The translations under genes were made by a program, and so were the position numbers. The notes under the pieces are model-generated. The model saw only the letters and a list, made by a program, of their open reading frames with translations. It was not told the DNA's origin and ran no database searches. From the NCBI GenBank assembly GCA_963760405.1, contig CAVXCV010000002.1, positions 679,413 to 743,412 of the forward strand: a stretch of DNA of 64,000 bases, given 5' to 3'. How positions within the stretch are numbered: the first letter of the stretch is position 1; the number at the start of each line of letters is the position of its first letter. Shown here piece after piece: positions 1 to 18,639 of this stretch. Source of the stretch: an uncultured Actinomycetes bacterium (GTDB lineage Bacteria > Actinomycetota > Actinomycetes > Streptosporangiales > Streptosporangiaceae).

Positions 1-1400
1 ACTCAACGATCAGATCACCTATATCCACACGTCGAACCGGGCCGCGAATAGCCAGACCTGGGCGGCTTTGCGCTTGAGCCGCCGGGCCAGGACGAGTCCG
101 GGGTGTTTTCCCTTGTGCCAGCGGCGGGACAGGTTGACGGAGATCCCGGCCGCGATGGCCTGGTCGTAGCTGTGGCGCAGGCGGGCCAGGAGCGCGGGGC
201 CGAGGCTGGCGCGGTTGCCGGCGCGGGCGGTCCTGACGGCGGCGGCGGCCTCGCGCAGCGCGTCGCCGGCCTGCCGGGTCCACAGCTGGGATACCGGGTC
301 AATGGCGTAGGCATCATCGAGGTAGCGGTACAAGTGGGCGAGGCACTGCTGGACCCCGGCGAGCCCGGCGTCGTAGCTGAGGTAGCCGCCGTAGTCGTCG
401 CGGACCAGCACCCCGCGGTAGCCGTCCAGGATCCCGAAGCCGGTGATCGCCGCCTTCGTGCGGTTCCCCGCTGCGCCGTACCAGATCAGGTCCGGCCCGC
501 CGCCGGTATAGGCACGCATGGTCCGCGCCGTGTAGACGTGCGGGTTCCCGCAGCCGTCCGCGCTGGCAGCCGCGGTGGTAAGCGGGGCGGGGGTCTCGTC
601 GGTGCCCAGCACGTCCGCCGCCCGCAGCGCGTCCTTCAGCGCGTCTTCGAACCGGGCGGCGGTTAACGCCGCGTCCAGGCGGACCAGGCAGCGGGAGACG
701 AACCCGGTCGAGACCGGCACCTTGAACAAGGCGCCCATCAGGTCCGCGGCCCGCTCGATCCCGATCACGTCCGTGCTCGCCAGCAGCGTCGCCGCATCGG
801 TCACGCCCGGCCCGTAGCACGCCGGGCCGCCGGTCACGCCCGGCGGTGGCGGGGCGGTCGTGACGTGCCCGCACCCGCAGGTGCGGCGCATCATCTGGTA
901 CTCCGTCACCGTCAGCGCCGCCGGCGGGATATCGAAGACCTGCACGCTGAAGGCGGCCCGGCCGGGAGAGCCGGCCAGGCCCGCGGCGCACCCGCCGCAC
1001 GCCAGCGGTTCGATGACCAGGGTCTCATCCGGCTGGGCGACCCGCGCCAGGCCCGCGCCCGGATGGCCCTTCTGCCCGCCCTGGGACCGGCCCGGCCGCG
1101 CCCGCCGGCTGCCCGCCCCTGCCTTCGCCCTGGCCTCCGCCGCAGGACCGTCCTGGCTCGGCGGCTGCGAGGAATTCGAGGAATCCCGGCCGGCCTGCCG
1201 CCGCAGCGCCGCCACCTCGCCCCGCAGCGACTCGATCAGCGCGGCCTGCTCCGCCACCACCGCCAGCAGCTCCGCGACCCGGGCAGCCAGCTCCTCATAC
1301 GACGGCTGCTCCGGATGCGGCATCCCGGAACCAAACCATGATCACAAAGCGGACGCCAGCACCGACACGCCGCAGATCAACAAGGGGCCTGACTGGTTAC
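1..1400 (-). mobile_element. IS66-family insertion sequence, partial (single-ORF, ISBst12-like layout)
   Basis: Contains the transposase ORF 19-1323. The element end is inferred at nt 1400, where the minus-strand sequence starts GTAACCAGTCAGG (IS66-type GTAA terminus) and where the flanking integrase homology begins. The other end is not visible: the transposase ends abruptly near the window edge. Confidence 0.6.
19..1323 (-). CDS. IS66 family transposase (TnpC-like), probably 3'-truncated
   Basis: N-terminal coiled coil ([34 protein letters not shown]). Cys-cluster zinc finger (CGGC...CGCGH). Long DDE-type core typical of IS66 TnpC. No tnpA/tnpB upstream. Ends ...[10 protein letters not shown], where I recall relatives continuing. 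Confidence 0.8.
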
Positions 1401-2308
1401 CCTGCCAGGGCGTGAGGATTCCCACGGTGCCCGCCACACCGCGGACCATCATCACCCCGCAGCAGTTCGATGCGATCTACGCAGCACTGCCGGACGCGGA
1501 CGCCCAGCTTCTCGTCGAGACCGCTATTGAGAGCGGGCTCCGCTGGGGCGAGCTGGCCGAACTCCGGGTCAGGGATCTCGACATGACGACCCGGATGCTC
1601 ACCGTGAGCCGCAAGGTCATCGAACTCAACCGGGAGTTCCACCCTGACGGCAAGCGGTTTCTCGTCAAGCACTACCCCAAGGAGAAGGAGTACCGGCGGC
1701 TCAAGCTCAGCCCGCAGATCGCCGCGAAGCTCAAGGTTCACCTCAAGGCCCGAGGCCTCAGTCCGGATGCGCTTCTGTTCGCCCGGCGGACCGCTCCCCC
1801 AACGCCGCTCCGCGCTGTCACCGACCCCGAAGCTCTCGGGCTCACCGAGCCGAACGAAGCAGGCCGCCAATACCGGCACGGCACACTCAGCGCCTACAAC
1901 GCAGGAAGATGCCGCTGCTCGCACTGCCGCCGGGCATTCGCGGACTACCGCGCTGCTCGCCGTGCGGCGCATGGCGCTTCTCCCCGGCTGCAGCGGGCGG
2001 TACACGAGGACGAGCACATCGGGCGCAACTGGTTCCGGCGCATGGTCTGGCGACCGGCTTGTCAAGCCGCCGACTTGGTCAACATGCCACGTTTTCATGA
2101 CCTCCGGCATTCACATGCGTCGTGGCTGCTCGCTGGCGGAGCCGACTTGCAGGTCGTGAAGGAACGCCTCGGCCACGCTTCGATCATGACCACTCAGCGG
2201 TACCTGCACACGCTCCCCAGTGCCGACGATTCCGCGGTCGAGGCATTTAGCCGTATCCGTAATCGTGGCACGAAAGCCACCAACCGCACCCCGAAAAGGT
2301 CCGCGTAA
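1401..2308 (+). pseudogene. tyrosine recombinase/phage integrase, C-terminal catalytic fragment truncated by the IS
   Basis: Shows [27 protein letters not shown] and [14 protein letters not shown] (R...HxxR...Y signature). Homology starts right at the IS end. The track Met at 860 lies antisense inside the transposase and is not part of the gene. Confidence 0.75.
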
Positions 2309-2922
2309 CCCCGCACGCAGAAGGCGGCCCGCGGAGCTGAGGCCCGGGATGCAATCCGGCCACTCAACTCAGATGGCCAGGCTGCCAAGCGCGTCCCGTA
2401 CCCGGCGGAGGAGACCAAGATCGCTTGAGAGTTCGCCGTGAGATCCCTGGATGGAGGACGCGTGCTTTGGCAGAAACTGTTCTGTGATGGGGAGCGGCAC
2501 GGCAGAGACTGGAGCAGCGGGAATGGTGGCCGCAGCCCAAATGACCTTGCCACGCCACGGGGGGTTACAGGGATACCAGTCCCGGGCTCTGGCCATCGCG
2601 GCGGCGGCCTCTTCGTCCCGAACAGAGCATACGGCAAAAGCATCCGCTGACTTACGATGTCGGCGCAGGTCAGCCACATAGGTACGGCTCTGACTAGCGC
2701 GTCTGAGCGCTCCTACGCTCCCATCCTGCTCTCCAAGAGGGGACGCAGCCGGGACGCTTCAGAACTTGGATCGGACGTCGGCTCTGAACTTTCATGCGTC
2801 CACCCTGGTGCGCCCCCCTGCGCACGCTGCTCACTCTATGGCTGCTCGGCCATGCCGCTAGGCGGCAGCGGTCTTGCGGGTGGGAAGCCGGTGCCTGACC
2901 GGGCTGATGGCATCGGGCCGGG

Positions 2923-4076
2923 TCAGCCTGATGACCCGAACTGGATGGGGACGTTGATGGCCTGCGTGCTGGCCCATGTGCGGGCGCCCGGCGCGGCCTG
3001 CCAGATGGTGAGTTTGGTTCCGCGGGCGGCCAGGGCGTTCCATCCGCCTGCTGTGCCCGGCGCCAGCGTGGCTGTGCCTGGGGGCAGCGCGGGCAGCGGC
3101 TGCCACCTGGCCGCGGTGGCGGTGATGGTCTGTGCGTGGCTGCTGTTCAAGACGATCGCCATGGTGCCGTCTGGCCCGGGCGATGCTGATGTCAGCGTGG
3201 CGCCGGTCAGCCGCAGCGCGGGTGACAGGGTCCAGTGCGCGCCATCGTCGCGGGACCAGGCGGCCATCAGGCGTGCTGCTGGCCCGGTTCCGGCTGCCAG
3301 CAGCGCCGTGGTGATGCTGGTGGTGGTGGTGAGGCGGAGCACGGTGATGGCCTGGTGCGCGTAGGCGGCGGGCAGCGGCGGCCCGGCGGGGTGCCATTTC
3401 CCGCTGGCGTAGGCGAAGATCCCGGCGGTCCCGGGGCGGGCGCAGCTGGCTGCCAGCAGGGGTTCCCCGGAGGAGGTGAACGCAGCCGCGGTGAGGCTGC
3501 TCAGCCCGCATCGGGTGCCTGCGGCGGTCGTGGCGAGTTCCTGGTGGGTGGCCAGCCGGGTCCAGGACACCGCGCCGGGGCCCGACAGTTCGGTGGTGCC
3601 GTCGGTGAGCAGCGCGAGCAGGCGCCCGCTGCCCGGGCGGCGGCTAGGGCGTCAGGGACATCGGCCAGGCCGGCATCGAGCAGGCCGGGTGACCAGGTGG
3701 TGCCGTCGTCATGGGTGGTGGCAAGGGGGGAGTAGGACAGGTCCTGGCTGGGCCGGAACCCGGCGAGTACCGCCCCGGAGGCCAGGCCGGCCAGGATCAG
3801 GCCGCCGTTGCTGGCCACTCCCGGCGGGGTCGCCAGCCGCCACTTGCCGGTCGTGGTTGGGCGGACGAACAGCTGCCAGAAGTTGTTGTGGCTGGCCGCT
3901 GACCCGCCCATCACCGCGGCTGCCCATGTCCCATCGGCGGTGACCAGTGAGGTGGCCAGGGACGGCGGCGTGGTCGTGCTGGGCGGGGTGGCGGCCTGGC
4001 GGGCTGTGCTGCCGCAGCCCGCGGTCACGACGGTCCCCGCCAGCAGCAGGGAGGCCAGGGCGGCGCGGCGGCTCAT
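2923..4076 (-). pseudogene. secreted lipoprotein with BNR/Asp-box beta-propeller-like repeats, frameshifted
   Basis: Lipoprotein signal MSRRAALASLLLAGTVVTAGC at 4076. Asp-box-like motifs HDDGTTWS, TDGTT and DDGAHWT. The reading frame switches between 3501-4076 and 2923-3570, with the indel inferred near 3630-3645 in a GCCGCCGCCCGGGC stretch. The start overlaps the stop of the upstream gene (ATGA). Confidence 0.6.
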
Positions 4077-5917
4077 GACGACCTCAGCGCGTGCCGGGCG
4101 GCACCGGCGAGCAGAACCGCGAACGAGGATTTGGTGGCTGTGGTCCCGGGCCCGGGATCGGTACTGAGTTCCTCGCGGACCCGCCCGGCCTGGTCGATGA
4201 CGTAGGCGATATCGGGGTGGCCGATCATGGATCCTGCGGGCAGGATCTGTGCGGCGATTCCGTAGTCCTTCCACACCTGCTGGAGCTGGGACAGGCTGCC
4301 GGTGAGGTAGAGCCAGTCCGGTACCTGGGTCAGGTGTTCCTGCCGGTCGAACGCCTGCGTGTAGGCGACGTCGTGGTAGATAGGGTTGGCGACGACCGCG
4401 ACCAGCTCGACGTGGCGTGCGGCGGCGCCGAGGAGCTGGCCTGCGTCGCGGAATTCCTGGGCGATCAGCGGGCAGTCGGTGGTGCACACCGGGTCCAGGA
4501 AGGTCAGCAGCACCACCTTGCCGCGCAGGCTGGCCAGGCTCACCGCCCGGCCGTGCTGGTCGGTGAGCTGGAAGGCCTTGGCGGGGAAGTTCAGCGGCGC
4601 GGACGACCCGGCGATGGCCTCGGCCAGGATCGGGTCGGCGTTCGGGCTGGCCTGGGCGGCGGCCATCGGGGCGGCACCGAGGATGATCAGCCCGAGCGCA
4701 CCAGCGGCGGCGACCGTGCGGATGCCCGCTGTGGCCACCGCCTGGCGCACGGACTCTGGCCGGGCCCGGTCCCGCCAGCCCGCCGCCTGCCGCGCCGGGC
4801 TGGCCGCTTCCGGCGCCGCCGCAGGCCCGGGCGTCAGGGCGAGATAGCCGCTGATGGCCAGGAGGGCGAACGGGATCATGCTGTTCGGGTCGGTGCCCAG
4901 GCCACCGAAGAACCCGAAGTCCTCGATCAGTACCCAGTCGGCCAGGCACAGCACGGCGAAGGCGATGACCGCCGGGCGGATCAGCCGCCGCCGTCCGCTC
5001 AGGAACGCGGCGGCGATCACCGCGAGCGCCACCACGACGAACAGGTTGACGGCGAATCCGTGCGCCTCATCGAAGACGGTGAAGGCATTGACCCAGGCGG
5101 ACACGAAGCCGGGCTGGGATGTCTGCGACATTGTGCTGGTCATGCCGGCCAGGGTGCCCGGCTGCCCGTGGGTGCCGCCCTGCCAGAACCCGCGCCCAGG
5201 CCAGGCCTGCAGGACCGCCATCCCGGCCAGGAACAGGCCCAGGCCGGCGAGGACCGCCCGGCCGAGCCGGGGGCTGCGCCACGCACGCTCGGGCAGCGCG
5301 ATCAGCCCGCCCGCCACCGCGTAGATCAGCACCGCGCCGGGAGCGCCGAACAGCCAGGTCAGGCCGGGGGCGAAGATCCCGCCGAACGACTCACCGAACA
5401 CCCATACCACCAGCCCCCACCCGGCGCTGGCCAGCCCGGCGAGCCGGGACAGCCGGCCGCCGGAGGATACGAGCAACCACAGGCCGATCCCGGCCTGGAT
5501 CCACACCGCGGACGCCCCGGCCTGCATCGGGTGATACGACCAGGTGGTCCCGGCCCAGTTCACTACCTGCTGCACCCAGTGCGGTGAACTCGCCGCGGTG
5601 GGCTCGATGACCTGCGACGGCAGGCCGATCGCCATCTTCGGCTGGGCTTGCAGGATCCCGTCGAAGACCCACAGCAGGCCGAACCCGATCCGCAGCAGCT
5701 GCCGCCAGGACGGCTCGGGCAGCGCGGCCGCGTCACCGGTCGCTGCCGGGCCGCCAGCCGGGGCTGCTGCGGGCAGCCACGCCCGGACGGTGATCCAGGC
5801 GAACCCGAGCAGGAAGAAGATCAGCAGCGCGATGATCCCCTGGTGCAGCAGCGCGGACATGAACGCCGCGACCACGGTGGGGTCGTTGACGTTGATCCCC
5901 GAGTTCATCCCAGACAT
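4073..5917 (-). CDS. polytopic membrane domain fused to a C-terminal SCO1/SenC-type thioredoxin-fold copper chaperone
   Basis: About 400 aa of hydrophobic helices, then GKVVLLTFLDPVCTTDCPLIAQEF (CxxxC) and a downstream conserved His (MIGHPDIAYVID), typical of SCO proteins. The start ATG shares its A with the ATPase stop (TGATG). Confidence 0.8.
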   Translation of the reverse strand: MSGMNSGINVNDPTVVAAFMSALLHQGIIALLIFFLLGFAWITVRAWLPAAAPAGGPAATGDAAALPEPSWRQLLRIGFGLLWVFDGILQAQPKMAIGLPSQVIEPTAASSPHWVQQVVNWAGTTWSYHPMQAGASAVWIQAGIGLWLLVSSGGRLSRLAGLASAGWGLVVWVFGESFGGIFAPGLTWLFGAPGAVLIYAVAGGLIALPERAWRSPRLGRAVLAGLGLFLAGMAVLQAWPGRGFWQGGTHGQPGTLAGMTSTMSQTSQPGFVSAWVNAFTVFDEAHGFAVNLFVVVALAVIAAAFLSGRRRLIRPAVIAFAVLCLADWVLIEDFGFFGGLGTDPNSMIPFALLAISGYLALTPGPAAAPEAASPARQAAGWRDRARPESVRQAVATAGIRTVAAAGALGLIILGAAPMAAAQASPNADPILAEAIAGSSAPLNFPAKAFQLTDQHGRAVSLASLRGKVVLLTFLDPVCTTDCPLIAQEFRDAGQLLGAAARHVELVAVVANPIYHDVAYTQAFDRQEHLTQVPDWLYLTGSLSQLQQVWKDYGIAAQILPAGSMIGHPDIAYVIDQAGRVREELSTDPGPGTTATKSSFAVLLAGAARHALRSS

Positions 5918-8340
5918 CAGGCCACCTGCTCCTGCGAGTGCGATCCGGCTGGCTCGGCTGATCCGGCTGGCCCGGGGCCGTCTGCGGGAACGCCGGACGG
6001 TCCCGGCCCGGCGTGCCCCTGGCGGGGACGGCGCGGCCGTGGCCAGTCCCGGCGGCCCGCCGGGGCGCCGAAGTGGCGCAGCCGCACGCTGTTGCCCACC
6101 ACGAACGCTGAGGATGCCGCCATCGCCGCCCCGGCGATCAGCGGGTTGAGGAACCCGGCGGCGGCCAGCGGGATGGCCGCGATGTTGTACCCGAACGCCC
6201 AGGCCAGGTTGCCCCGGATCACCGCCAGGGTGGCGCGGGCCAGGGCGATCGCGTCCGGCACGGCGCTGAGATCATCGCGCAGCACGATCAGGTCCGCGGC
6301 GCTGATCGCCACGTCGGTACCCGTGCCCAGGGCCAGCCCCAGGTCAGCCGCGGCCAGGGCAGGCCCGTCGTTCATCCCGTCCCCGACCATGGCCACCCGC
6401 CGGCCGTGAGCCTGCAGGTCCCGGATGACGGCGACCTTATGATCGGGCAGCGCCCCGGCGATCACCTCATCGATGCCTGCCTGGGCGGCGACCGCCTGCG
6501 CGGTGGCCTGGCTGTCACCGGTGAGCAGCACCGTGCGCAGGCCCAGCCGCCGCAGCTGCGCGACCGCCACGGCGGCCGATGGCTTGACCGTGTCGGCGAC
6601 CGCGACCGCGCCGCGTACCTGCCCATCCCACCCCGCCAGCACCACGGTGGCGCCGGACCGCTCCCACTCGCGGCACGCGCTGGCCAGCTCCGCCGGGATG
6701 GGCATCCCCAGATGCGCGAACAGGTCCTCGCGGCCGATGATCACCTCGTGGCCGGCCACGGACCCGCGTGCGCCCAGGCCGGGCATGGCCAGGAACCTGG
6801 CCGCCTGCGGCAGCGCCCCCAGTTCCTCGTGCGCCGTAGCGCTGATGGCCGCGGCCACGGGATGCTCTGATGCTTGCTCCACCGCTCCGGCGTGCCGGAG
6901 CACGTCCTCGCGGCTGGTGCCGACTGCCGGCTGGACGGCGGTCACCGCCATCACTCCGGTGGTGACCGTCCCGGTCTTGTCCAGCACCATGACATCCACC
7001 GCCCGGGAGGACTCCAGGGCCTCGTATCGCGTGATGAAGATCCCCAGCTGCGCGCCCCGCCCGCACGCCACCATCAGCGCCGCCGGGGTCGCCAGGCCCA
7101 GCGCGCACGGGCACGCGATGATCAAGACCGCCAGCGCCGCGCTGAACGCCTGCTCAGCCGGGCTGCCCGCCAGCAGCCACCCGGCCAGCGTCAGGCCTGA
7201 GGCGGCGAGCACCGCGGGAACGAACACGCCGCAGATCCGGTCAGCGAGCCGCTGGATAGCCGCTTTCTGCGACTGGGCCTGCTCGACCAGGGTGACCAGA
7301 TGCGCCAGCTGCGTGTCGGAGCCTACTTTGACCGCGCGCACCACCAGCCGCCCGGCCAGCACTACCGTGCCCGCGGCCACCAGGTCACCCTCACCGGCGT
7401 CGGCCGGGACGGATTCCCCGGTCATCATGGCGCGGTCCACCGCGGACTGCCCGAATTCGACCTCCCCGTCCGCGGCGATCCGCTCCCCCGGGCGCACCAC
7501 GAACCGCTGTCCCGCGCGCAGCTCCGCGACCGGGATCCGGCGCTCGGTCCCATCACCGTCCAGGACGCACGCGTCGCTCGCACCTGCCGCGGCCAGTTCC
7601 CGCATCGCATCCCCGGCATCGCGCCGGGCCCGGGCCTCAAACCACCGGCCCGCCAGCAGGAACGTTGTCACCGACGCGGCGACCTCCAGGTAGATACCGC
7701 CGCCGGAGGCATGCAGCAGCAGATACGGCAGCCTCATCCCCGCCTGGCCGCGGTCCAGGACGAACATCGCGTACACCGACCAGCCGCACGCCGCGGTGAT
7801 GCCCAGCGACACCAGCGTGTCCATCGACACTGAGCCGTGCCGGGCACCCCGCAGCGCCGCGGCATGGAACGGCCACGCTGACCACACCACCACCGGCGCC
7901 GCAGCCCCGATCAGGACCCACTGCCAGCCGGGGAACCGGGCCCACGGGAACAGCGACAGCAGCACAGAAAGGTCGCTGAGCGGGATGAAGAACACCAGAG
8001 CCACGATCAGCCGGTTCCGCAGATACGCGACACGAGCCGCATCCGCCCCGCCCGCCTCAGCCAGGTCATCGCCGGCTGCCTGGCCCGCGCCGCGACCGGG
8101 CACCTCGGCGCTGTAACCCGCCTGCTGCACCGCCTCGATGAGACGCTGCACGGGAACCGGCGCGGGAGCGGTGACAATGGCGCGCCCGGTCGCGAAATTC
8201 ACCGTCGCTGAGACGCCGTCAATGGCGTTGAGGTTCCTCTCGACCCGGGCCGCGCACGCCGCGCAGGTCATCCCGGTGACCGGGAACCCGACCTCTCCGG
8301 ACACCGAGGATGCCGCACCAGTGACTGCCGCAGATGACAC
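5917..8340 (-). CDS. heavy-metal (Cu+-type) translocating P1B-type ATPase
   Basis: N-terminal HMA domain GMTCAACAARVE. CPC in IIACPCALGLATP. Phosphorylation site DKTGTVT. SEHP and GDGMNDGPALAAADLG motifs. Carries a roughly 50-aa Pro/Gly-rich C-terminal tail. Confidence 0.92.
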   Translation of the reverse strand: MSSAAVTGAASSVSGEVGFPVTGMTCAACAARVERNLNAIDGVSATVNFATGRAIVTAPAPVPVQRLIEAVQQAGYSAEVPGRGAGQAAGDDLAEAGGADAARVAYLRNRLIVALVFFIPLSDLSVLLSLFPWARFPGWQWVLIGAAAPVVVWSAWPFHAAALRGARHGSVSMDTLVSLGITAACGWSVYAMFVLDRGQAGMRLPYLLLHASGGGIYLEVAASVTTFLLAGRWFEARARRDAGDAMRELAAAGASDACVLDGDGTERRIPVAELRAGQRFVVRPGERIAADGEVEFGQSAVDRAMMTGESVPADAGEGDLVAAGTVVLAGRLVVRAVKVGSDTQLAHLVTLVEQAQSQKAAIQRLADRICGVFVPAVLAASGLTLAGWLLAGSPAEQAFSAALAVLIIACPCALGLATPAALMVACGRGAQLGIFITRYEALESSRAVDVMVLDKTGTVTTGVMAVTAVQPAVGTSREDVLRHAGAVEQASEHPVAAAISATAHEELGALPQAARFLAMPGLGARGSVAGHEVIIGREDLFAHLGMPIPAELASACREWERSGATVVLAGWDGQVRGAVAVADTVKPSAAVAVAQLRRLGLRTVLLTGDSQATAQAVAAQAGIDEVIAGALPDHKVAVIRDLQAHGRRVAMVGDGMNDGPALAAADLGLALGTGTDVAISAADLIVLRDDLSAVPDAIALARATLAVIRGNLAWAFGYNIAAIPLAAAGFLNPLIAGAAMAASSAFVVGNSVRLRHFGAPAGRRDWPRPRRPRQGHAGPGPSGVPADGPGPAGSAEPAGSHSQEQVA

Positions 8341-8689
8341 CTAGCGCCTGCCTTCCCGCCAGAATCCGGCCAGCCATCCGCAGGCCACCGCCGGCCCCGC
8401 ACCGGGGACGCACGGTAGGCGGACCTGCTGCTGACAGCGGCAAAGCAACGCGTGGTGCCGCCGTACCCGGGAATCTACACAGCGCTGAAAGTCATCCGCA
8501 ACACAATGCGGCCCGGCGGATGACCATTATTCTGGCCTGCTATACCCCGGCCCGGTTCCCCGCATACCGTCCCGGGGTTTACGTAATACCCCGGAGGGGT
8601 TTCCTGAATGCCATAGACGCGATCCCGGCAATACTCTCGCTTGCGCGTCCCTTCGGTGGCCCATTACCCTCGAGGAGTCATGCGCCGAC

Positions 8690-9511
8690 ATGAAACTCCG
8701 GCTCCGCCCCGCGGCTTCTGGGAACATTTCCCCGGGGCCGCCACCGCGCGCCCCGGGTACACGCTGCCAGGGGGATGCTGACGTGGCCGGGCCTTCCTGG
8801 CTCGCGGGAGCCTTCGCGGCCGTCATGATCCTCACCGCCGCCTACTCCGCCAGCCGCCTGGCTATGTCCCGGCTGCGGGGGCTGGCAGCGGAGTCCGACG
8901 CCGACGGGCTGCATGCCGTCATGGGCGCCGCGATGGCAGGCATGCTCGTGCCACGGCTGAACCTGCTACCCGGCAGGGTATGGGCGGTGGTGTTCGCGTT
9001 TGCGGCGGCGTGGTTCGCCGGGCGCGCCATCCGCGGCCGGGCCGCGCGCACGCCCAGCTGGCAGTGCCGCTTCCCGGTCCCGCACCTGATCGAATGCGCC
9101 GCCATGCTCTACATGCTCCTGCCCGCCCGCGGCGCGCAGCATGGGACGGGAATGGCGATGCCCGGCATGGGCGCATCCCCCGGCCTGCCGGCAAGCTTCC
9201 CGGCCCTCGCCGTCGTCCTGGCCATGTTCATGATCGGCTACGTCATGTGGACCACCGACCAGCTGGCCTCCCTGGCCCGGGCCAAAACCACCGCGCCAGC
9301 CCCGGCCACCACCCCGCAACGCCTGACACTGGTCACCGTCCCAGCGGCCGGCCGCCCCGCAGACGCGGCTGGCACCGAGGGCACGCCAGGCGCAGCGGGG
9401 ACCCGGCCCCAGCACCCCGCCGGCACGCCGGTTCTCGCCCCCCGGCTCGCGATGTTCGGCAAGCTCGCCATGGGCATCACCATGGGCTACATGCTCATCC
9501 TCATGCTCTAG
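8690..9511 (+). CDS. DUF5134-like membrane protein (copper-island associated)
   Basis: Multi-helix membrane protein rich in Met/His (HAVMGAAMAGM, GTGMAMPGMG, MGITMGYMLILML). Divergent from the ATPase. A more likely start is the GTG at 8783, preceded by GGGGGA. Confidence 0.7.
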   Translation: MKLRLRPAASGNISPGPPPRAPGTRCQGDADVAGPSWLAGAFAAVMILTAAYSASRLAMSRLRGLAAESDADGLHAVMGAAMAGMLVPRLNLLPGRVWAVVFAFAAAWFAGRAIRGRAARTPSWQCRFPVPHLIECAAMLYMLLPARGAQHGTGMAMPGMGASPGLPASFPALAVVLAMFMIGYVMWTTDQLASLARAKTTAPAPATTPQRLTLVTVPAAGRPADAAGTEGTPGAAGTRPQHPAGTPVLAPRLAMFGKLAMGITMGYMLILML

Positions 9512-9533
9512 CCCCGCTCAGCGGCGGACCCGG

Positions 9534-10466
9534 CTAGCTGCCGGGCGCCATGCCGTGCAGGACCTGATTGATGGCCGTGATGATCACCTGCGCTGAGCCA
9601 TCGATCGCCTTGGCCACCGGGCTGGCGGGATTCCCGAGCCGGGCGGCGATCTGGGCGGAGGACAGGCCAGCCAGCACCTGCGGGCTGTACTGCGCACCCG
9701 CCAGGATGTCGTGGTTGGCGATGTCGAGGAACGGGACGGCCCCGGACTGGTCAGCGCTGTTCACATAGGGCGGCACGTCGTAGGTGCCGACCAGCTGGGT
9801 GTCCAGCGGGGTCTGCGGCTGGAGGGGATGGCCGAGGTTGTCGGTCAATTCGGTGGTGCGCAGGGTGAGGTCCCGGCTGCTGTAGCGCGCGGCGCGGAAG
9901 GAGAACGTGGCCGTGCCCGGGTAGACGTCGGTGGCCGAGGACGTGGTGGAGCCGAGATGGCTCCAGTGGCCGAAATGGGCCAGCGCGACGACCAGCGGCC
10001 AGCGCTCGGCCGCGCAGAACGGGCAGGACTCTTCGCTGACGAACACAATGGCTGGCTTGCCGCCGATGGTCAGCGGCGGGGCAGCCGGCTGGATGGCATG
10101 CAGCGAGGTGACCGCGCGGCCCGGGCTTATCCCGGCCAGCACCGCAGCAGGAACGGTAGTGACCTGGCTGACCACACTGGAGCGCGCGGGTGATTCGCTG
10201 GCGACCGCCCCGGCGGAGGTCAGCTTGATCACGACCAGCGCCACGATGATGCCCAGGACGGCGGTGACCGACGCGATCGCCAGGAAGAACCGCCGCCTCG
10301 CCTCAGCGCGTTTGGCCGCGGCCCGCTCAGCCGCGATCCGCTCCCGGGCCCGCAGCGAGGCCGGCCGGGCGCGCCTGCTGGGTCGCCTGCCCTCCGCATG
10401 ACCGTGACGGGTCTTTGCCACCTGCCGTCCCTCCGCCGGTTGCGCAACACTGGGCCCGGCCGCCAT
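9534..10466 (-). CDS. DUF929 family thioredoxin-like membrane-anchored protein (paralog 1)
   Basis: Basic N-terminus, single TM helix and a CPFC motif in IVFVSEESCPFCAAERWPLVVAL. Start taken at the ATG at 10466 (MAAGPSV). The longer track ORF to 11051 overlaps the next gene. Confidence 0.8.
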   Translation of the reverse strand: MAAGPSVAQPAEGRQVAKTRHGHAEGRRPSRRARPASLRARERIAAERAAAKRAEARRRFFLAIASVTAVLGIIVALVVIKLTSAGAVASESPARSSVVSQVTTVPAAVLAGISPGRAVTSLHAIQPAAPPLTIGGKPAIVFVSEESCPFCAAERWPLVVALAHFGHWSHLGSTTSSATDVYPGTATFSFRAARYSSRDLTLRTTELTDNLGHPLQPQTPLDTQLVGTYDVPPYVNSADQSGAVPFLDIANHDILAGAQYSPQVLAGLSSAQIAARLGNPASPVAKAIDGSAQVIITAINQVLHGMAPGS

Positions 10467-10543
10467 GCCGTGGCCCTGCCTACTACAACGGATAGGAAGA
10501 ATGAGGTGTTCATCCCCGCGTCGCGTGGCAGCGGGTGCGCGGG

Positions 10544-11428
10544 TCAGAGTTTGGTTTCGAGCGCGGTGATCGCTGGCGATGAGCACACGCCTGCCGGCTG
10601 GCCGCCCGTTGTCTTGCAGATGGCCGCGGTGATGTAGTTCGCGGCACCGAGCGCGCCCTGGGCGATGGGGCTTGACGGGTCGTGCAGGGCCGAGGCGATC
10701 TGGGCCCAGGTCTTGCCCTGCAGCACCTGCGGGTCGTAGATCGGCCCGGTGATGTCGTACTTGCCGCCGAAGTCGATGAACGGGTAGGAGTTCGGGTCGT
10801 ATCTGTCCCACAGCGCCTGCTGCTGCGCCGTGGTGGCCTGCAGCGGGGCACGGTTGACCGTCTGGTTCTCGACCGGGGTGAACACCAGGTACCGGCTGGT
10901 GTAGCGGGACTGGTAGAAGGTCAGGGTCGCGGTATCCGGGAAGACGTCGGTGGGCGAGGAGCGGATGCCGCGCAACGGCGTGATAAACGCGCCGAACCTG
11001 TTCAGCGCCACCGCCATCGACCACCGCATCGCCGCGCAGTACGGGCACCATTCGGCGCCAATGTAGAGCATCTCCGGCTTGCCGTCCTGAGTGAGCGGCG
11101 GACCGCTGACCGACTTCACCGGCACTGGGTTATAGGAAGTGACCGAGCCGCCGCCGACCGCGTCCAGCGTGGCGGCCGGGACATTCTTGATGTCATTCAG
11201 CACACTCGCTGGGAGCGCCGTCCCCCGCGGGGATCCGGGCCGCGCACTGGACTGGCCGCCGCTGTTCGACCTGATCACAATGAACGCGACGACGACAGCG
11301 GCCACGACCAGGACGCTGCCAGCCGCGATCAGCACCCTCCGGCGGGTCTCAGCGCGCCGCGCGGCGGCACGCTGCGCAGCGATCCGCTGCCGGGCATTCT
11401 GCTGCCTCGCCCGCGCCGCCTTGCCCAT
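10544..11428 (-). CDS. DUF929 family thioredoxin-like membrane-anchored protein (paralog 2)
   Basis: Same architecture as paralog 1, with a CPYC motif in MLYIGAEWCPYCAAMRWSMAVAL. Start taken at MGKAARAR (11428). Confidence 0.8.
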   Translation of the reverse strand: MGKAARARQQNARQRIAAQRAAARRAETRRRVLIAAGSVLVVAAVVVAFIVIRSNSGGQSSARPGSPRGTALPASVLNDIKNVPAATLDAVGGGSVTSYNPVPVKSVSGPPLTQDGKPEMLYIGAEWCPYCAAMRWSMAVALNRFGAFITPLRGIRSSPTDVFPDTATLTFYQSRYTSRYLVFTPVENQTVNRAPLQATTAQQQALWDRYDPNSYPFIDFGGKYDITGPIYDPQVLQGKTWAQIASALHDPSSPIAQGALGAANYITAAICKTTGGQPAGVCSSPAITALETKL

Positions 11429-12024
11429 CCGGCCGTCCCATCTCCCCAGTGGACGCGGCCATGCTACCCGCGTGTTACGCGCTATTAACACGCGGCCTCA
11501 CCTATTTTAAATACGGTCGAGACCGTAAGCTTCTGCTCGGCTGCGACAGCTACGTGATCATGGCGTCTGTCAGGGTCTGCCCGTGACAGCCCTCAAACCT
11601 GGACAGCGGCTGTTACGGACAGCGAACATACGGCTGGTGCGACAGCCAGATGGTCGCGCCTGCCGACTCTGTGGTTGGCCGGCCGAACTGATCAGTGGTG
11701 GCGCCAGCGGCCAGAACCACCAGTTTCTGGGCCTTCTCGGCGCCGCCCGGTTATCGGGGCTCTCAGCTTGGCCCCGCATGCTGGCCGTGGCGGCTTGTGT
11801 CTCGTGGTGGGGCGCGCACCTGCAACGCTGACCCGGCTGGCGACGTCAGGCCCTCCACCAGAGGCCAGAGTGCTGTACGGTCGCCGCTGCAGGCATGGCA
11901 TGGCGGTGGGCCAGCCGCCAGCAGGCGGGCCAAGCCGGTCGTGCACCGTGCACCAAGCCAGCCGGCGTCTCACTGATTGCCGTCACGCGCGGACTCGCGT
12001 TGCACGACCCCGCGGCAGCCGTCC

Positions 12025-12840
12025 TTATGAGCTGGGCGCCGCCGGGATCGCGCGGCCCGCGAGCCAGCTGAGCACCTGCCGCGCTTGCGGCACGGTCCAG
12101 CTCTCAGCCGGATTGGGATGGTAGAGGTTGTGGTAGCCCTGCGGATCCATGAACCGCATCAGCGTCGGCGGCAGCGTGCTGCCGCGGGCGTCGGCGGCGG
12201 CGTTGGCGACGTAGCGCTCTTTCCCGTCCGGGGACAGGAAGATCAAGGTGTCGCTGTGCGAGACGTCGTAGGTCAGCTTCTGGCCGGTGAGCCAGTCCGT
12301 GGCGGGCGGGCTGCCTTCGGGCACCCGGTGGAAGTAGATGTAGAAGAAATTGCACAGCGTGGCGGTGCCGGCCACGGTGGTGGCGGTCAGCAGCGTCCAA
12401 TCCCGCCGCGGCCCGCCGAACAGCTTCTGGTAAGCGGCCAGCCGGGCCGGCGTGTCGCGCTGCGGGTCGACCGTGAGCTCCAGCAGCGCGACCTTCCCGG
12501 TGAGCCCGGCGGCCTGGACCTGGCGGGCCAGCGCGGCGGTGTTGGCCGAGATCATCGGGCACATGTCCTGGCACAGGGTGATGAAGTCCGCGATCATCAC
12601 GATCTTGCCGCGGTAGGCCGCGAGCGTGGTGCGCTGCCCGGCCGCGGTGGTCAGCGGCAGCTGCGAGACCGAAGCGGGCAACGGCGTGTTCATCACCGCT
12701 CCGCCCAGCGCGGCGGGCGGCCGCAGCTGGCTGGCGGCACCGTGCTGCTGGGCCGGGCTGCCACAGGCCGCCACACTGAGGCCGAGCAAGGCAGCAGCGG
12801 CCGCCACCCGGCCGCGACGCCGCAACCACAGCAGGCGCAT
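12025..12840 (-). CDS. SCO1/SenC family lipoprotein
   Basis: Lipobox LGLSVAAC. CxxxC in FITLCQDMCPMIS. Conserved His in DVSHSDTLIFLSPDG. Confidence 0.85.
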   Translation of the reverse strand: MRLLWLRRRGRVAAAAALLGLSVAACGSPAQQHGAASQLRPPAALGGAVMNTPLPASVSQLPLTTAAGQRTTLAAYRGKIVMIADFITLCQDMCPMISANTAALARQVQAAGLTGKVALLELTVDPQRDTPARLAAYQKLFGGPRRDWTLLTATTVAGTATLCNFFYIYFHRVPEGSPPATDWLTGQKLTYDVSHSDTLIFLSPDGKERYVANAAADARGSTLPPTLMRFMDPQGYHNLYHPNPAESWTVPQARQVLSWLAGRAIPAAPSS

Positions 12841-13955: not shown

Positions 13956-15986
13956 TTACCGCCGACGTGAAGCCGCAGGTCCAGGTGGAGCGCCCGTAGC
14001 GCAGCGAGGACGAACGACCTGGAGGTGAGGCTTCGCGTGGGTCACACTCAGGCAACCAGGGCAGGCTTCTAGGAACGAGATCAGCTGCGAGTCAGCATCA
14101 ACGAGCGGCCTGGCGCGGACCGGCGGCGGCGCCGCGCGTGGCCGAGAGCGCAGCTCAGCAGAGTCCTGCGCCGCAGCCATACGCAAGGCGTCAACCAGTG
14201 GCACCGGGAAGTCAGCCTGAGCCCGGTCGGCCGGATCACCGGGCCGGTCCGCCCGGGCGTGAGCCTGCCTGGGATGTGGCGCCCGTCCCCGCGCCTGGGC
14301 GAACGCGGCATGCAGATCCTCTGCGGCTCGGCGGGCGGCTGCGGCCTGGGCGCCATGGGCCTGCGCCTGCCGCAGCCCCGCCACCGCATCGATGAGCGCC
14401 GCCAGGTTCGCGGCCAGCGCACCGGCCCCCAGGAGGCCATCGCGGCCGTCGCCGGCCATCGCGAGCAGCCGCGCTGCCGCCCGCAACCGCTCACCCTCCC
14501 CGCTGCGGCGCGGAACGCGGCCATAGGGCGTGCGGGCGGCCCGGTCATAACGGTCCGCGGCGCAGCGCAGGACCCGGCTGCCGGTCGCCCGCGCCGCCGC
14601 ATGCAACGCGTCCGCCGCCGCCCATGCCGCATCCGCCCCGCGGCCAGGATCACCGCCGGTGCAGCGGCGCAGGTGCTCCGCCGCCGCAGCGGCCTGGCGG
14701 GCCGCGTGCCTGTAGACCTCGGTACGTTCCGGAGCAGTGAACCGCACCGCCCCGGAACGCTCCGTGGCCGGGTTATGTCCCTGGGCCCAGGCGTCCCGCA
14801 GCCGGGGCAGGCTCAGCGACTCGTGCAGCCGCCCACCGCCGTACCAGCGGAGCGCGCCGTCCCGGGCGGTGCAGCCGGGGAGCGTCACCGCATACCCCGT
14901 GACCTCACCCGGATGAATGTCGCTGAGCCGTTCCCGCACCAGCACCCCTGCCGCGCGCAGCCGGGCGAAGAAGTCCTGCTCCTCCATGACCTGCCCAGCG
15001 GCCTGGGCCACGGTAGCCCGTAGCACGGCCCGGATCGCCGGTGGCGGCAGGTCCGCCGCCCCGGCCAGCGGATCACGAGCGGCTGGGTGCGCCCACCGGG
15101 CGCGTAGCTTCGGCAGTGTGAAGTCCGCGGCGAGCTTCCCGCCGCCGTACCAGATGACCTGCCCATCCCTGGTGGTGTGCTCGGGCAGGCCGGCCGCGTA
15201 CCCCGTCACTTCACCCGGGTGCACGGTGCTGTGCCGTTCCCGCACCAGTACCCCGGCCTGGGCGAGCCGGGTGAAGAACTCGGCCTCGGTGCGTGCTCCG
15301 GCCGCCGCGGTGCACACCTCCCGCCGCAGCCGCACCCGGGGCGCCTCCTCCTGTCCCAGGCGGGCCGCGTGTTCCGTCTCGGCGCGGGTGGCCCGGCGCG
15401 CCGCGGTGCGATCCGCCGGAGCGGTAGCCCGCAGCCCGAGCTGGCGTTCGGCGTCCCGGCAGGCATCCCGCAGCTTGTAATAGCCGTTCCACAGGTCCGG
15501 CCGGCGCCGGTCCTGGCGGGCCAGCGTCGCCACCAGGTGAATGTGATCGGCGCCGTGGCGGACCGCGACCCACCGCACGCCCAGCTCATCACCCTCGGAC
15601 GCCAGCCCGCTCCGGTCCATGATCTGCGTGGCGACGTGCGACCATTCGGCGTCGGACAGCAGCCGGTCTTGCGGCGCGGCGCGGACGGCGCAGTGCCAGA
15701 CCGGCTGGGCGTAGTTGTCCCCGTCCAGCGCGGCCAGGGGCTGGTCCAGCAGCCCGGCCAGCCGCCGCAGATCCCGCGACCCGTTCGGTCGGCGTTCGGG
15801 CTCCAGTTCGGCCGGGTCACCGAACCCGGCGACCAGGTGCGGGTCGGTATGCTCATTCGCCTTTCCCGGCCCGTACAAGTAGTACAGCAGCCGCCGGGCA
15901 TTGGTGCCGCGGATCACTTTCCCGATCACCTGGAACGCTCCCGACGGTTCACGGAATGCTCCGGCGCACCTGCCCCGCCGCCTCAT
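13956..15986 (-). CDS. relaxase/mobilization nuclease (MobA/VirD2 family)
   Basis: N-terminal relaxase motifs: IRGTNARRLLYYLYGP and the histidine triad HGADHIHLV. Follows mobC. An alternative GTG start at 15929 would avoid overlap with mobC. Contains an internal ~65-aa tandem duplication. Confidence 0.85.
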   Translation of the reverse strand: MRRRGRCAGAFREPSGAFQVIGKVIRGTNARRLLYYLYGPGKANEHTDPHLVAGFGDPAELEPERRPNGSRDLRRLAGLLDQPLAALDGDNYAQPVWHCAVRAAPQDRLLSDAEWSHVATQIMDRSGLASEGDELGVRWVAVRHGADHIHLVATLARQDRRRPDLWNGYYKLRDACRDAERQLGLRATAPADRTAARRATRAETEHAARLGQEEAPRVRLRREVCTAAAGARTEAEFFTRLAQAGVLVRERHSTVHPGEVTGYAAGLPEHTTRDGQVIWYGGGKLAADFTLPKLRARWAHPAARDPLAGAADLPPPAIRAVLRATVAQAAGQVMEEQDFFARLRAAGVLVRERLSDIHPGEVTGYAVTLPGCTARDGALRWYGGGRLHESLSLPRLRDAWAQGHNPATERSGAVRFTAPERTEVYRHAARQAAAAAEHLRRCTGGDPGRGADAAWAAADALHAAARATGSRVLRCAADRYDRAARTPYGRVPRRSGEGERLRAAARLLAMAGDGRDGLLGAGALAANLAALIDAVAGLRQAQAHGAQAAAARRAAEDLHAAFAQARGRAPHPRQAHARADRPGDPADRAQADFPVPLVDALRMAAAQDSAELRSRPRAAPPPVRARPLVDADSQLISFLEACPGCLSVTHAKPHLQVVRPRCATGAPPGPAASRRR

Positions 15987-18621: not shown

Positions 18622-18639
18622 GACCTGCTACTTCACTCG

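What the first reader, a model, noticed from the sequence alone, without database searches (positions are those of the whole stretch)
2923..8340. Translationally coupled operon: Cu-type P1B ATPase -> polytopic membrane::SCO fusion -> BNR beta-propeller lipoprotein
The three minus-strand genes are joined by overlapping stop/start codons: TGATG at 5915-5919 and ATGA at 4073-4076. The middle protein fuses about 400 aa of uncharacterised transmembrane helices to a classic CxxxC SCO1/SenC domain. The last gene is a lipoprotein with Asp-box (BNR) repeats. SCO proteins normally act as stand-alone extracytoplasmic Cu chaperones. A fixed ATPase-SCO-propeller stoichiometric unit suggests a dedicated export-and-handoff pathway to an unknown extracytoplasmic client. 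I do not recognise this architecture as a described system.
Basis: partly seen in the sequence, partly recalled or inferred. Interest (0 to 1): 0.65.

Follow-up and report, generated by a model that had tools for sequence, protein, structure and literature searches.

The report
Copper pump coupled to membrane-anchored SCO
A soil actinobacterium encodes a copper-exporting pump joined to an unusual copper chaperone (SCO fused to an unknown 10-helix membrane domain) and a beta-propeller lipoprotein; in relatives this chaperone-propeller pair sits beside cytochrome oxidase genes, so it is probably an undescribed copper-delivery module for respiration.

Summary
The P1B-1 Cu(I)-ATPase (5917-8340), the 614-aa membrane::SCO fusion (4073-5917) and a third gene (2923-4076) lie on the minus strand. 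They are joined by TGATG and ATGA overlaps. The third gene is not one intact ORF here. A 1-nt deletion in a CCCGGG run near 3634-3637 splits it, whereas all relatives have an intact ~384-aa lipoprotein predicted to be a 7-bladed propeller.

Across 80 species-level genomes, the propeller gene follows the fusion in 77/78 loci. The ATPase sits directly upstream in 60/74, and a divergent DUF5134 gene is present in 57/71. The shared promoter carries three tandem CsoR-type operator motifs, conserved in 48/54 loci.

The N-terminal 10-TM domain matches no Pfam, NCBIfam or PDB sequence family. It also occurs stand-alone, next to DUF5134.

The basal and distant relatives (Acidimicrobiales, 35-41% identity) lack the ATPase. 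There the fusion and propeller sit with Caa3_CtaG, COX2 and COX1. The likely client is therefore a heme-copper oxidase, and the ATPase coupling is a derived state.

No function has been tested. A copper-tolerance role is the main rival. I rate it a new variant of a known kind, of moderate interest.

The parts
5917..8340 (-). P1B-1 Cu(I)-translocating P-type ATPase (807 aa, GTG start) with one N-terminal HMA domain
   Evidence: Pfam HMA, E1-E2_ATPase and Hydrolase. TIGR01511 486.8 bits against a cut-off of 397. Motifs GMTCAAC 23, TGE 307, CPC 410, DKTGT 454, GDGMND 653, GYN 717, MAASS 740. Directly upstream of the fusion in 60/74 related loci.
4643..5917 (-). Fusion protein, residues 1-425: uncharacterised 10-TM domain predicted N-out/C-out. 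Conserved motifs sit on the predicted outer face: MxGM at the N-terminus, WxxDGxLQxQxxM, HP, WVFGExFGG, GAPGA, LQAWPGRGFW, MxxxMxxxxQP and QDxGFxGGxGTDPNSM.
   Evidence: No Pfam, NCBIfam or PDB-sequence match. AF2 pLDDT 90 and pTM 0.89, with helices listed. Positive-inside count. Conservation. The family has 1645 clusters at 50% identity, both fused and stand-alone. Weak internal repeat, residues 107-179 against 264-335 (hhalign E 1.5e-4).
4073..4600 (-). Fusion protein, residues 440-614 plus stop: extracytoplasmic SCO1/SenC thioredoxin-fold domain with C478-x3-C482 and H567
   Evidence: PF02630 47.2 bits against a cut-off of 22.8. phmmer hits to 4hde, 1xzo and 4wbj. Foldseek to B. japonicum ScoI 4wbj, TMt 0.84-0.86. 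C482 in 36/43 and H567 in 36/41 fused relatives.
2923..4076 (-). Gene 3: beta-propeller (BNR/Asp-box-like) lipoprotein, split here by a 1-nt deletion. Relatives are intact at ~384 aa.
   Evidence: ORFs 3501..4076 and 2923..3570 are in different frames. Intact homologues. The AF2 model of relative P0272 is a propeller, which I read as 7-bladed from the strand pattern and the 7-bladed Foldseek matches (pLDDT 76). Foldseek finds generic propellers, including Ycf48 and PLL lectins, with TM about 0.5. Some relatives carry PF13088. Follows the fusion in 77/78 loci.
3634..3637 (-). Frameshift site: one base missing in a CCCGGG run (+ strand)
   Evidence: Alignment. Sequence. Related contigs carry an extra base after 3634 or 3636.
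8542..8603 (-). Three tandem G-tract pseudopalindromes (AAACCCC-N3-GGGGTAT type) about 22 nt apart: candidate CsoR-type operators in the divergent promoter region
   Evidence: The exact core ACCCCNNNGGGGT occurs once in the 64 kb, at 8588-8600. It is present with <=1 mismatch in 48/54 orthologous intergenic regions, against 1.8 expected from shuffles. The three-copy array is visible in the alignment. The S. lividans CsoR consensus is ATATACCCCTNAGGGGTATAT (PMC3902906).
8472..8501 (-). Conserved promoter-like TTGCGG-N18-TAGATT, followed by a ~130-nt leader and a GGAAGG ribosome-binding site ahead of the ATPase GTG
   Evidence: Conserved columns in the alignment of 18 intergenic regions. Sequence. 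The E. coli-consensus scan did not call it.
8690..9511 (+). Divergent DUF5134 membrane protein with a conserved Met/His ladder (start codon uncertain)
   Evidence: PF17197, 70 bits. Divergent partner in 57/71 loci. Conserved residues H75, M78, M82, M85, H132, E135, M139, M142, M157, M160, M261, M265, M268 and M272.

Best explanation
This is a copper-regulated operon. A CopA-type Cu(I) exporter is translationally coupled to a two-protein copper-insertion module on the outer face of the membrane.

The module consists of two proteins:
- an SCO copper chaperone tethered to a previously undescribed 10-TM domain;
- a beta-propeller lipoprotein.

This pair is an old unit in Actinomycetota, and its ancestral genomic partner is an aa3-type heme-copper oxidase. 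Its most likely job is therefore to metallate that oxidase (CuA in subunit II), or another exported cuproprotein.

In this lineage the pair has been placed behind the exporter, so copper pumped out of the cytoplasm can be handed on directly.

Proposed steps:
1. Inferred: a CsoR-type repressor leaves three tandem operators when cytoplasmic Cu(I) rises. This switches on the ATPase operon and the divergent DUF5134 gene.
2. Family knowledge: the P1B-1 ATPase exports Cu(I).
3. Inferred: conserved Met/His residues on the outer face of the membrane domain (M1, M4, M95, H129, M259, M263, M347) capture or channel the metal to the tethered C-x3-C...H site of SCO.
4. Inferred from gene neighbourhood: SCO loads the client. 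The propeller acts as scaffold or adaptor.

The sequence features and the conservation are shown. Every functional step is inferred.
For: - The ATPase has all P1B-1 signatures.
- The SCO fold and its Cys/Cys/His triad are conserved.
- Positive-inside counts and the AF2 helices give a 10-TM topology that puts SCO and all conserved membrane-domain motifs outside.
- The gene overlaps are conserved in most related genomes.
- The fusion plus propeller pair persists at 35-41% identity in L081, L082/83, L088, L089 and L090. hmmsearch of the downstream gene gives E 1e-20 to 1e-72.
- Caa3_CtaG and/or COX2-COX1 are adjacent in L081, L084, L085/86, L087, L089 and L090. They are also adjacent in the basal Streptosporangiaceae-type loci L073, L079 and L080.
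- In an NJ tree the ATPase-linked copies form one crown clade, nested inside loci that lack the direct ATPase link; the deepest of these are COX/CtaG-linked.
- The CsoR-like operator array is conserved in 48/54 loci.
- Precedents exist for an exporter supplying an oxidase. CtpB of M. tuberculosis is one (PMC9147137). CcoI to SenC in Rhodobacter is another (my own knowledge).
Against: - Nothing has been tested experimentally.
- No oxidase or CtaG gene lies in this 64-kb window, and the ATPase-linked clade has lost that adjacency.
- CsoR-type control is typical of detoxification operons rather than assembly ATPases (PMC3902906).
- Here the cluster lies among an IS66 transposase, an integrase fragment and relaxase/NikA genes. 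In L024 it is duplicated in tandem. That pattern fits an accessory tolerance trait.
- The role of the membrane domain is deduced only from conserved residues and predicted topology.
- I could not inspect coordinates of the 3D model or search its fold separately.
- Gene 3 is broken in this assembly.
Confidence: 0.5

Rival explanations
1. It is a copper-tolerance island, not an assembly pathway. The ATPase expels excess Cu(I). The outward-facing SCO, the propeller and DUF5134 sequester or detoxify the exported copper at the membrane surface, or protect exported cysteine-containing proteins. This is functionally analogous to the Scs or CopZ-type buffering systems.
For: - The CsoR-type operator array sits in the shared promoter.
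- The context is mobile: IS66 at 19-1323, an integrase fragment, relaxase at 13956-15986, NikA, and tRNA-Glu at 18639-18712.
- IS66 or relaxase remnants lie next to the cluster in other genomes.
- The whole cluster is duplicated in tandem in L024, and one MAG holds two copies, L008 and L070.
- DUF5134 has a Met/His ladder.
- An extra stand-alone SCO (12025-12840) and two thioredoxin-like DUF929 genes lie nearby.
Against: - The fusion plus propeller pair has a deep association with CtaG and COX genes and none with ATPases outside the crown clade.
- Canonical SCO proteins are metallochaperones (family knowledge).
- In a monoderm, exported copper can diffuse away, so a dedicated sink is less obviously needed (inference).
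Confidence: 0.3
2. The SCO-like domain works as a thiol-disulfide oxidoreductase (TlpA/ResA-like) rather than a copper carrier. The membrane domain supplies or removes electrons.
For: - The domain has a thioredoxin fold.
- Secondary Pfam hits to AhpC-TSA (E 2.5e-8) and Redoxin.
- Foldseek also hits ResA, TlpA and peroxiredoxins.
- A redoxin gene and a second SCO gene lie divergently next to the fusion in L087.
Against: - SCO1/SenC is the best-scoring family.
- The Cu-ligand histidine H567 is conserved in 36/41 relatives.
- The membrane domain has no conserved cysteine; C324 is present in only 32/57.
- It shows no similarity to DoxX (hhalign probability 0.1%).
Confidence: 0.08
3. The copy in this window is a decaying, non-functional copy. 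The frameshift in gene 3 is real and the island is being eroded by insertion sequences.
For: - Frameshift at about 3634-3637.
- An IS66 transposase and a truncated integrase lie immediately downstream.
- The intact gene-3 product of this window is absent from the protein collection.
Against: - The lesion is a single base in a C3G3 homopolymer run.
- The source contig is 902,736 bp long, which I take to mean a long-read assembly; related loci from the MFD MAG series show many similar splits, for example the L001 ATPase in five pieces.
- Both halves of gene 3 keep full similarity to relatives.
- The ATPase and fusion are intact, with GC3 of 0.88-0.91.
- Close relatives carry the extra base.
Confidence: 0.25

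Closest known systems
CcoI/CopA2-type P1B ATPase to SenC (Sco)/PccA route for cytochrome oxidase metallation in Rhodobacter and Pseudomonas (my own knowledge); CtpB of M. tuberculosis (PMC9147137)
   Same: A Cu(I)-exporting P1B ATPase supplies copper to an extracytoplasmic chaperone for a respiratory oxidase. SCO is the receiving chaperone.
   Different: In those systems the genes are unlinked and Sco has a single membrane anchor. There is no propeller or DUF5134 partner, and the client is cbb3 or the bc1-aa3 supercomplex. Here the genes overlap, SCO is fused to a 10-TM domain, and the promoter looks CsoR-controlled.
YcnJ of B. subtilis (CopC-CopD-YtkA fusion; PMC13344008) and CtiP of C. glutamicum (CopD-Caa3_CtaG fusion; reviewed in PMC9145763)
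   Same: A polytopic copper-handling membrane protein is fused to an extracytoplasmic copper-chaperone or assembly domain that supports heme-copper oxidase maturation.
   Different: The domain families are unrelated. There are no CopC, CopD, YtkA or CtaG matches, and hhalign against CtaG gives a probability of 0.2%. YcnJ is proposed, and shown there to act, as a copper importer, and CtiP's CopD domain is proposed to import copper; this module is coupled to an exporter.
Canonical Sco proteins (BsSco/YpmQ 1xzo, B. japonicum ScoI 4wbj, S. lividans Sco 4bpy)
   Same: Same fold, same C-x3-C...H copper site, same outside location.
   Different: Canonical Sco has one TM helix or a lipid anchor. This one follows about 425 residues of conserved membrane domain and is always paired with a propeller gene.
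Streptomyces CsoR regulon (csoR, copZA operators; PMC3902906)
   Same: G-tract pseudopalindrome with the same ACCCC-N3-GGGGT core and a GTA arm, upstream of a Cu ATPase gene.
   Different: The left arm reads AAC, not TAC. There are three tandem copies. No CopZ gene is present and no csoR gene was found in the window. Binding has not been tested.
Ycf48/HCF136 beta-propeller assembly factor of photosystem II (5ojp)
   Same: A seven-bladed propeller on the outer or lumenal face that assists assembly of a membrane redox complex. It is among the Foldseek hits.
   Different: The match is only generic (TM about 0.45-0.55, 15% identity). Lectins and lactonases score equally well.

Membership tests
P1B-1 (Cu+) P-type ATPase | DKTGT phosphorylation motif, TGE, GDGxND | tested here: met
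   DKTGT 454, TGE 307, GDGMND 653. Pfam E1-E2_ATPase and Hydrolase.
P1B-1 (Cu+) P-type ATPase | Transmembrane metal site: CPC in TM4, YN in TM5, MxxSS in TM6 (signature from the literature, my own knowledge) | tested here: met
   CPC 410, GYN 717, MAASS 740. TIGR01511 486.8 bits against a cut-off of 397.
P1B-1 (Cu+) P-type ATPase | N-terminal HMA domain with CxxC | tested here: met
   PF00403 at residues 19-76; GMTCAAC at 23.
P1B-1 (Cu+) P-type ATPase | Cu(I)-stimulated ATPase and transport activity; efflux-type versus assembly-type kinetics | not testable with these tools
   Needs biochemistry.
SCO1/SenC | Thioredoxin fold of the Sco type | tested here: met
   PF02630 47.2 bits against a cut-off of 22.8. 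Foldseek to 4wbj, 4hde and 1xzo with TMt 0.72-0.86.
SCO1/SenC | C-x3-C plus distal His copper ligands | tested here: met
   C478, C482 and H567. C482 conserved in 36/43 and H567 in 36/41 fused relatives.
SCO1/SenC | Single N-terminal TM helix or lipid anchor | tested here: not met
   SCO is preceded by a conserved 10-TM domain of about 425 residues.
SCO1/SenC | Copper binding and a role in CuA assembly | not testable with these tools
   Only neighbourhood evidence is available: CtaG/COX2/COX1 in relatives.
BNR/Asp-box beta-propeller lipoprotein | Beta-propeller fold | tested here: met
   AF2 model of relative P0272 (72% identical): all-beta, pLDDT 76, pTM 0.78. Foldseek finds 6- to 7-bladed propellers.
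BNR/Asp-box beta-propeller lipoprotein | Repeated S-x-D-x-G-x-x-W Asp-boxes, or a Pfam BNR match | tested here: inconclusive
   Only two Asp-box-like motifs, at 121 and 275. The window halves give no Pfam hit. PF13088 is recorded for some relatives.
BNR/Asp-box beta-propeller lipoprotein | Lipobox with invariant Cys after a signal peptide | tested here: met
   MSRRAALASLLLAGTVVTAGC. G20, C21 and G22 are nearly invariant in 32 relatives. Distant homologues have a plain signal peptide or a TM anchor instead.
CopD/YcnJ-type or CtiP-type copper transporter fusion | CopD (PF05425), CopC or Caa3_CtaG domain in the membrane part | tested here: not met
   No such Pfam or NCBIfam hit in the window protein or in 27 relatives. 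hhalign against CtaG gives a probability of 0.2%.
DoxX/DoxD/MauE-like membrane oxidoreductase | Profile similarity to DoxX | tested here: inconclusive
   No Pfam DoxX hit. hhalign against two E. coli DoxX proteins gives a probability of 0.1%, but that template profile is very thin. The only hit is a weak one to DUF6041 (best E 6e-4, 4/18 members).
CsoR-regulated operon | G-tract pseudopalindrome with 5'-TAC-N9-GTA-3' arms (PMC3902906) | tested here: inconclusive
   The window has AAC-N9-GTA with an ACCCC-N3-GGGGT core. It is conserved in 48/54 loci in three tandem copies. No csoR gene was found in the window. Binding is untested.

The most novel reading that the evidence does not exclude
The 8-10-TM domain (fused to SCO or stand-alone) and DUF5134 together form a new kind of outer-face Cu(I) relay or transporter. 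This relay docks physically on the P1B ATPase, takes copper at the pump's exit site, and passes it through a Met/His path to the tethered SCO. The propeller holds the apo-client (oxidase subunit II). The whole would be a self-contained membrane 'metallation machine', unlike the diffusible-chaperone routes known so far.
Probability: 0.2. Interest if true: 0.75.

Novelty: new variant of a known kind. Interest (0 to 1): 0.55.

Why it matters
How copper reaches respiratory oxidases outside the cytoplasm is poorly understood in Actinomycetota. Corynebacterium lacks a Sco, and the roles of CtiP and CtpB are still tentative (PMC9145763, PMC9147137).

This finding offers three things:
- A large, unannotated membrane-protein family: 1645 clusters at 50% identity, and over 6600 hits for the fusion.
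- A propeller partner that travels with oxidase and CtaG genes in one set of lineages, and with a copper exporter and DUF5134 in another.
- Concrete candidate assembly factors, and a testable link between copper export and cuproenzyme loading.

It also flags DUF5134 as a probable copper-handling membrane protein.

Tried and rejected
- **Sequence families for the membrane domain.** Pfam, NCBIfam and PDB-sequence searches, with single sequences and with a profile, found nothing.
- **Fold search.** Foldseek on the full-length model returned only SCO/thioredoxin-fold matches in the 50 listed.
- **DoxX-like hypothesis** (suggested by the LRIGFGLLWxxDG motif). hhalign gave a probability of 0.1% against two DoxX sequences that I had verified by Pfam. 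Not supported, although the template is thin.
- **Caa3_CtaG relationship.** hhalign probability 0.2%.
- **DUF5134 relationship to the membrane domain.** Only a 15-residue Met-rich match, probability 12%.
- **Plasmid carriage.** PLSDB holds no membrane-domain homologue, only SCO-domain hits.
- **RNA elements.** No Rfam family in 2500-9600.
- **Promoters and terminators.** The sigma-70 consensus scan found no promoter and no credible terminator.
- **Island borders.** No att-like direct repeat of tRNA-Glu within 1-20 kb.
- **csoR gene in the window.** A regex for the RxxGQxxG...M motif found none. This is a weak test.
- **Read-level check of the frameshift.** No public run holds this exact sequence (<=8% of words). 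Only contigs of relatives could be laid on it.
- **Literature.** No paper describes a polytopic-membrane::SCO fusion, the propeller partner, or a function for DUF5134.

Full report
**1. What is in the sequence**

The region is high-GC (about 72%). It carries three co-directional minus-strand genes.

The first is an 807-aa ATPase at 5917-8340 with a GTG start. It has HMA, E1-E2 and HAD domains. TIGR01511 (copper-translocating P-type ATPase) scores 486.8 bits against a cut-off of 397. Direct reading finds GMTCAAC 23, TGE 307, CPC 410, DKTGT 454, GDGMND 653, GYN 717 and MAASS 740. From my knowledge of the family, this is the P1B-1 Cu(I) signature.

The second is a 614-aa protein at 4073-5917. Residues 447-580 match SCO1/SenC at 47.2 bits against a cut-off of 22.8.

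TGATG lies at 5919->5915 and ATGA at 4076->4073.

**2. The third gene is split**

The interval 2923-4076 is 1154 nt long, which is not a multiple of 3. The frame opened by ATG 4076 closes at 3501. The C-terminal two thirds are read in another frame that ends at 2923.

Homologues in related genomes are single ORFs of about 384 aa. Alignment with 32 of them shows the window's first frame diverging right after 'DALAAA', and the second frame resuming at 'PGSGRLLALL'. One base is therefore missing from the + strand run CCCGGG at about 3634-3637.

Contigs of close relatives from short-read soil metagenomes carry one extra base after 3634 or 3636. No public run holds this exact sequence.

The lesion sits in a homopolymer. 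The source contig is 902,736 bp long, which I take to indicate a long-read assembly. Related loci from the MFD MAG series show many comparable splits, for example the L001 ATPase in five pieces. I therefore consider an assembly error more likely than a true pseudogene, but this is not settled.

Read through the frameshift, the protein has a lipobox (VTAGC, Cys21, nearly invariant in relatives) and two Asp-box-like motifs at 121 and 275.

An AF2 model of a 72%-identical relative is an all-beta propeller, which I read as seven-bladed (pLDDT 76). It resembles only generic propellers, including PLL lectins, Ycf48 and sortilin Vps10, with TM about 0.5.

**3. The fusion protein**

AF2 on a 57-sequence alignment gives a confident model (pLDDT 90, pTM 0.89). 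It has about ten membrane helices, a Pro/Ala/Arg-rich linker at 362-398, a last TM helix at 399-423, and then the SCO domain.

The SCO domain superposes on B. japonicum ScoI, BsSco and other Sco structures with TMt up to 0.86. C478, C482 and H567 are conserved among fused relatives.

Lys and Arg residues concentrate in alternate loops: 1, 3, 3 and 5 on one side against 0, 1, 0, 1 and 0 on the other. This gives an N-out/C-out topology that places SCO outside, as expected for the family.

All strongly conserved motifs of the membrane domain then fall on the outer face. They include five methionines and one histidine: M1, M4, M95, H129, M259, M263 and M347. No cysteine is conserved; C324 is present in only 32/57.

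A weak internal repeat links residues 107-179 to 264-335.

The domain has no Pfam, NCBIfam or PDB-sequence relative, whether tested as a single sequence, through 27 diverse members, or as a profile. The only signal is a sub-threshold match of four members to DUF6041.

Specific tests against Caa3_CtaG, DoxX and DUF5134 were negative.

An exhaustive search with residues 1-400 found 1645 clusters at 50% identity. Some are about 600 aa and SCO-fused. Others are 335-470 aa and stand-alone.

**4. Conservation of the neighbourhood**

The species-level genome collection returned 552 confirmed relatives. I examined the best 80, which share 60-85% identity and come from Streptosporangiaceae, Trebonia and unclassified actinomycete soil MAGs.

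| Feature | Count |
|---|---|
| Propeller gene directly after the fusion | 77/78 loci |
| 4-nt A/GTGA overlap at that junction | 73/76 |
| ATPase directly upstream of the fusion | 60/74 |
| Overlap at the ATPase/fusion junction | 51/60 |
| Divergent DUF5134 gene upstream | 57/71 |

**5. The shared promoter**

The exact core ACCCCNNNGGGGT occurs once in the 64-kb window, at 8588-8600. With at most one mismatch it is present in 48 of 54 orthologous intergenic regions, where shuffles give 1.8.

Alignment shows three such motifs in tandem about 22 nt apart (8542-8603). A conserved TTGCGG-N18-TAGATT and a leader to the ATPase start follow.

The core and its GTA arm match the Streptomyces CsoR type-2 consensus ATATACCCCTNAGGGGTATAT. 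The left arm reads AAC instead of TAC (PMC3902906).

I infer copper-responsive control of both divergent transcription units. The regulator itself was not found in the window.

**6. What the distant relatives show**

Context look-ups were made for fused family members at 35-41% identity to the window protein, or to P0264. Two of them are named Acidimicrobiales by NCBI. They gave eight distinct neighbourhoods. None contains a P1B ATPase.

| Neighbour | Loci where found |
|---|---|
| Caa3_CtaG gene next to or near the fusion | L081, L084, L085/86, L087, L089, L090 |
| Full COX2-COX1 oxidase operon following | L081, L084, L085, L087, L090 |
| Downstream gene is a gene-3 homologue (hmmsearch E 1e-20 to 1e-72) | L081, L082/83, L088, L089, L090 |

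Within the 80 closer loci, the most divergent ATPase-less ones (L073, L079, L080) have the order fusion-propeller-CtaG. Next to it lies a divergent cupredoxin-COX2-COX1-CtaG operon.

In an NJ tree the ATPase-linked copies form a single crown clade. It is nested among basal lineages without a direct ATPase link and deeper COX/CtaG-linked lineages.

The fusion plus propeller pair is therefore the old unit. Its ancestral association is with a heme-copper oxidase, and capture behind a copper exporter is derived.

**7. Interpretation**

The best-supported reading is a copper-regulated export-and-delivery operon. The ATPase pumps Cu(I) out. The outward-facing membrane domain and its tethered SCO receive it. 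SCO, with the propeller as adaptor, loads a cuproprotein, most probably the CuA site of an aa3-type oxidase.

The sequence features, topology and conservation are shown. All transport, binding and delivery steps are inferred.

The main rival is a copper-tolerance island. Supporting this rival:
- CsoR-type control is typical of efflux operons.
- In this window the cluster lies between an IS66 transposase and integrase fragment on one side, and relaxase/NikA genes and a tRNA-Glu on the other.
- Mobile-element remnants lie near the cluster in other genomes.
- The cluster is duplicated in tandem in L024.
- It travels with a Met/His-rich DUF5134 protein, a second SCO and two thioredoxin-like DUF929 genes.

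The two readings are not exclusive. A module that keeps oxidase metallation going while copper is being expelled would fit both.

A purely redox role for the SCO domain is unlikely. The copper-ligand histidine is conserved and the membrane domain lacks conserved cysteines.

**8. Comparison with known systems**

The logic resembles two known kinds of system:
- ATPase-to-Sco routes. CcoI to SenC is one (my own knowledge). CtpB is another (PMC9147137).
- Fusions of polytopic copper proteins with chaperone domains. YcnJ is one (PMC13344008). CtiP is another (PMC9145763).

None of the defining domains of those fusions (CopC, CopD, YtkA, CtaG) is present here. The review of bacterial oxidase assembly factors lists no such Sco architecture, and my literature searches found no description.

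Public annotation calls the fusion 'SCO family protein' or 'cytochrome oxidase Cu insertion factor', and the propeller 'hypothetical protein'.

**9. Verdict**

This is a new variant of a known kind of system. It contains an uncharacterised membrane-domain family and a conserved propeller partner. It is of moderate interest to people working on copper homeostasis and respiratory-oxidase biogenesis.

Noticed in passing
window 8690-9511 (+), and DUF5134 homologues in 57 loci: DUF5134 proteins carry a conserved Met/His ladder in their membrane helices: H75, M78, M82, M85, H132, E135, M139, M142, M157, M160, M261, M265, M268, M272. They also have a GMAMPGMG stretch. This looks like a Cu(I) conduit. 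The family has no described function.
   Followed up: partly
L014 2744-3898, L057 5286-6302, L062 20306-21313, L064 12766-13782, L074 1735-2892, L040 18488-19507 (all minus strand in locus coordinates): Stand-alone paralogues of the membrane domain (about 335-385 aa, no SCO, about 30% identity) sit immediately upstream of a second DUF5134 gene on the same strand. A second P1B ATPase paralogue usually lies beside them. The membrane domain and DUF5134 are therefore linked independently of SCO.
   Followed up: partly
window 19-2308 and 13956-18712: The copper cluster lies in a mobile-element context: IS66 transposase (19-1323, -), integrase fragment (about 2045-2212, +), MobA/VirD2-like relaxase (13956-15986, -), NikA-like protein (15949-16452, -) and tRNA-Glu (18639-18712, -). 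No att repeat was found within 20 kb.
   Followed up: partly
window 9534-11491 (-) and 12025-12840 (-): Two tandem DUF929 (thioredoxin-like) genes and a second, stand-alone 271-aa SCO1/SenC gene lie just beyond DUF5134. DUF929 genes flank the cluster in about 12 other loci.
   Followed up: partly
L024 7050-13012 and 13510-19974: The whole DUF5134-ATPase-fusion-propeller cluster is duplicated in tandem in one genome. Another MAG (MFD00731.bin.2.112) holds two separate copies, L008 and L070.
   Followed up: no
L081 12223-12936, L085 11186-11887, L084 908-1612, L087 9985-10671, and L073/L079/L080 at about 5700-6340: A protein of about 230-240 aa with no Pfam match is encoded directly upstream of COX2. 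It has one TM helix, a GHTF motif and a C-terminal NCEFPCG...M motif, which has CuA-like C-x3-C-G spacing but lacks the second His. It may be an undescribed cupredoxin-like oxidase subunit or an alternative client.
   Followed up: no
L089 5657-6997: A 446-aa protein combines a zf-HC2 anti-sigma motif with a Caa3_CtaG domain. It lies directly upstream of the fusion gene, next to several ECF sigma factor genes. This hints at a regulatory link between oxidase assembly and envelope signalling.
   Followed up: no
window 8496-8529 (-): An 8-bp perfect inverted repeat (TCATCCGC...GCGGATGA) overlaps the promoter-like -35 element. It encloses an 11-codon ORF (MVIRRAALCCG). It is not conserved in the aligned relatives, apart from the TTGCGG hexamer.
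   Followed up: partly
L001, L024, L028, L031, L044, L059 (ATPase region): In several loci, five of the six listed being from the MFD MAG series, the ATPase is recovered by tblastn in two to five pieces in different frames. This suggests frequent single-base indel errors in these assemblies and bears on how to read the frameshift in the window's gene 3.
   Followed up: no
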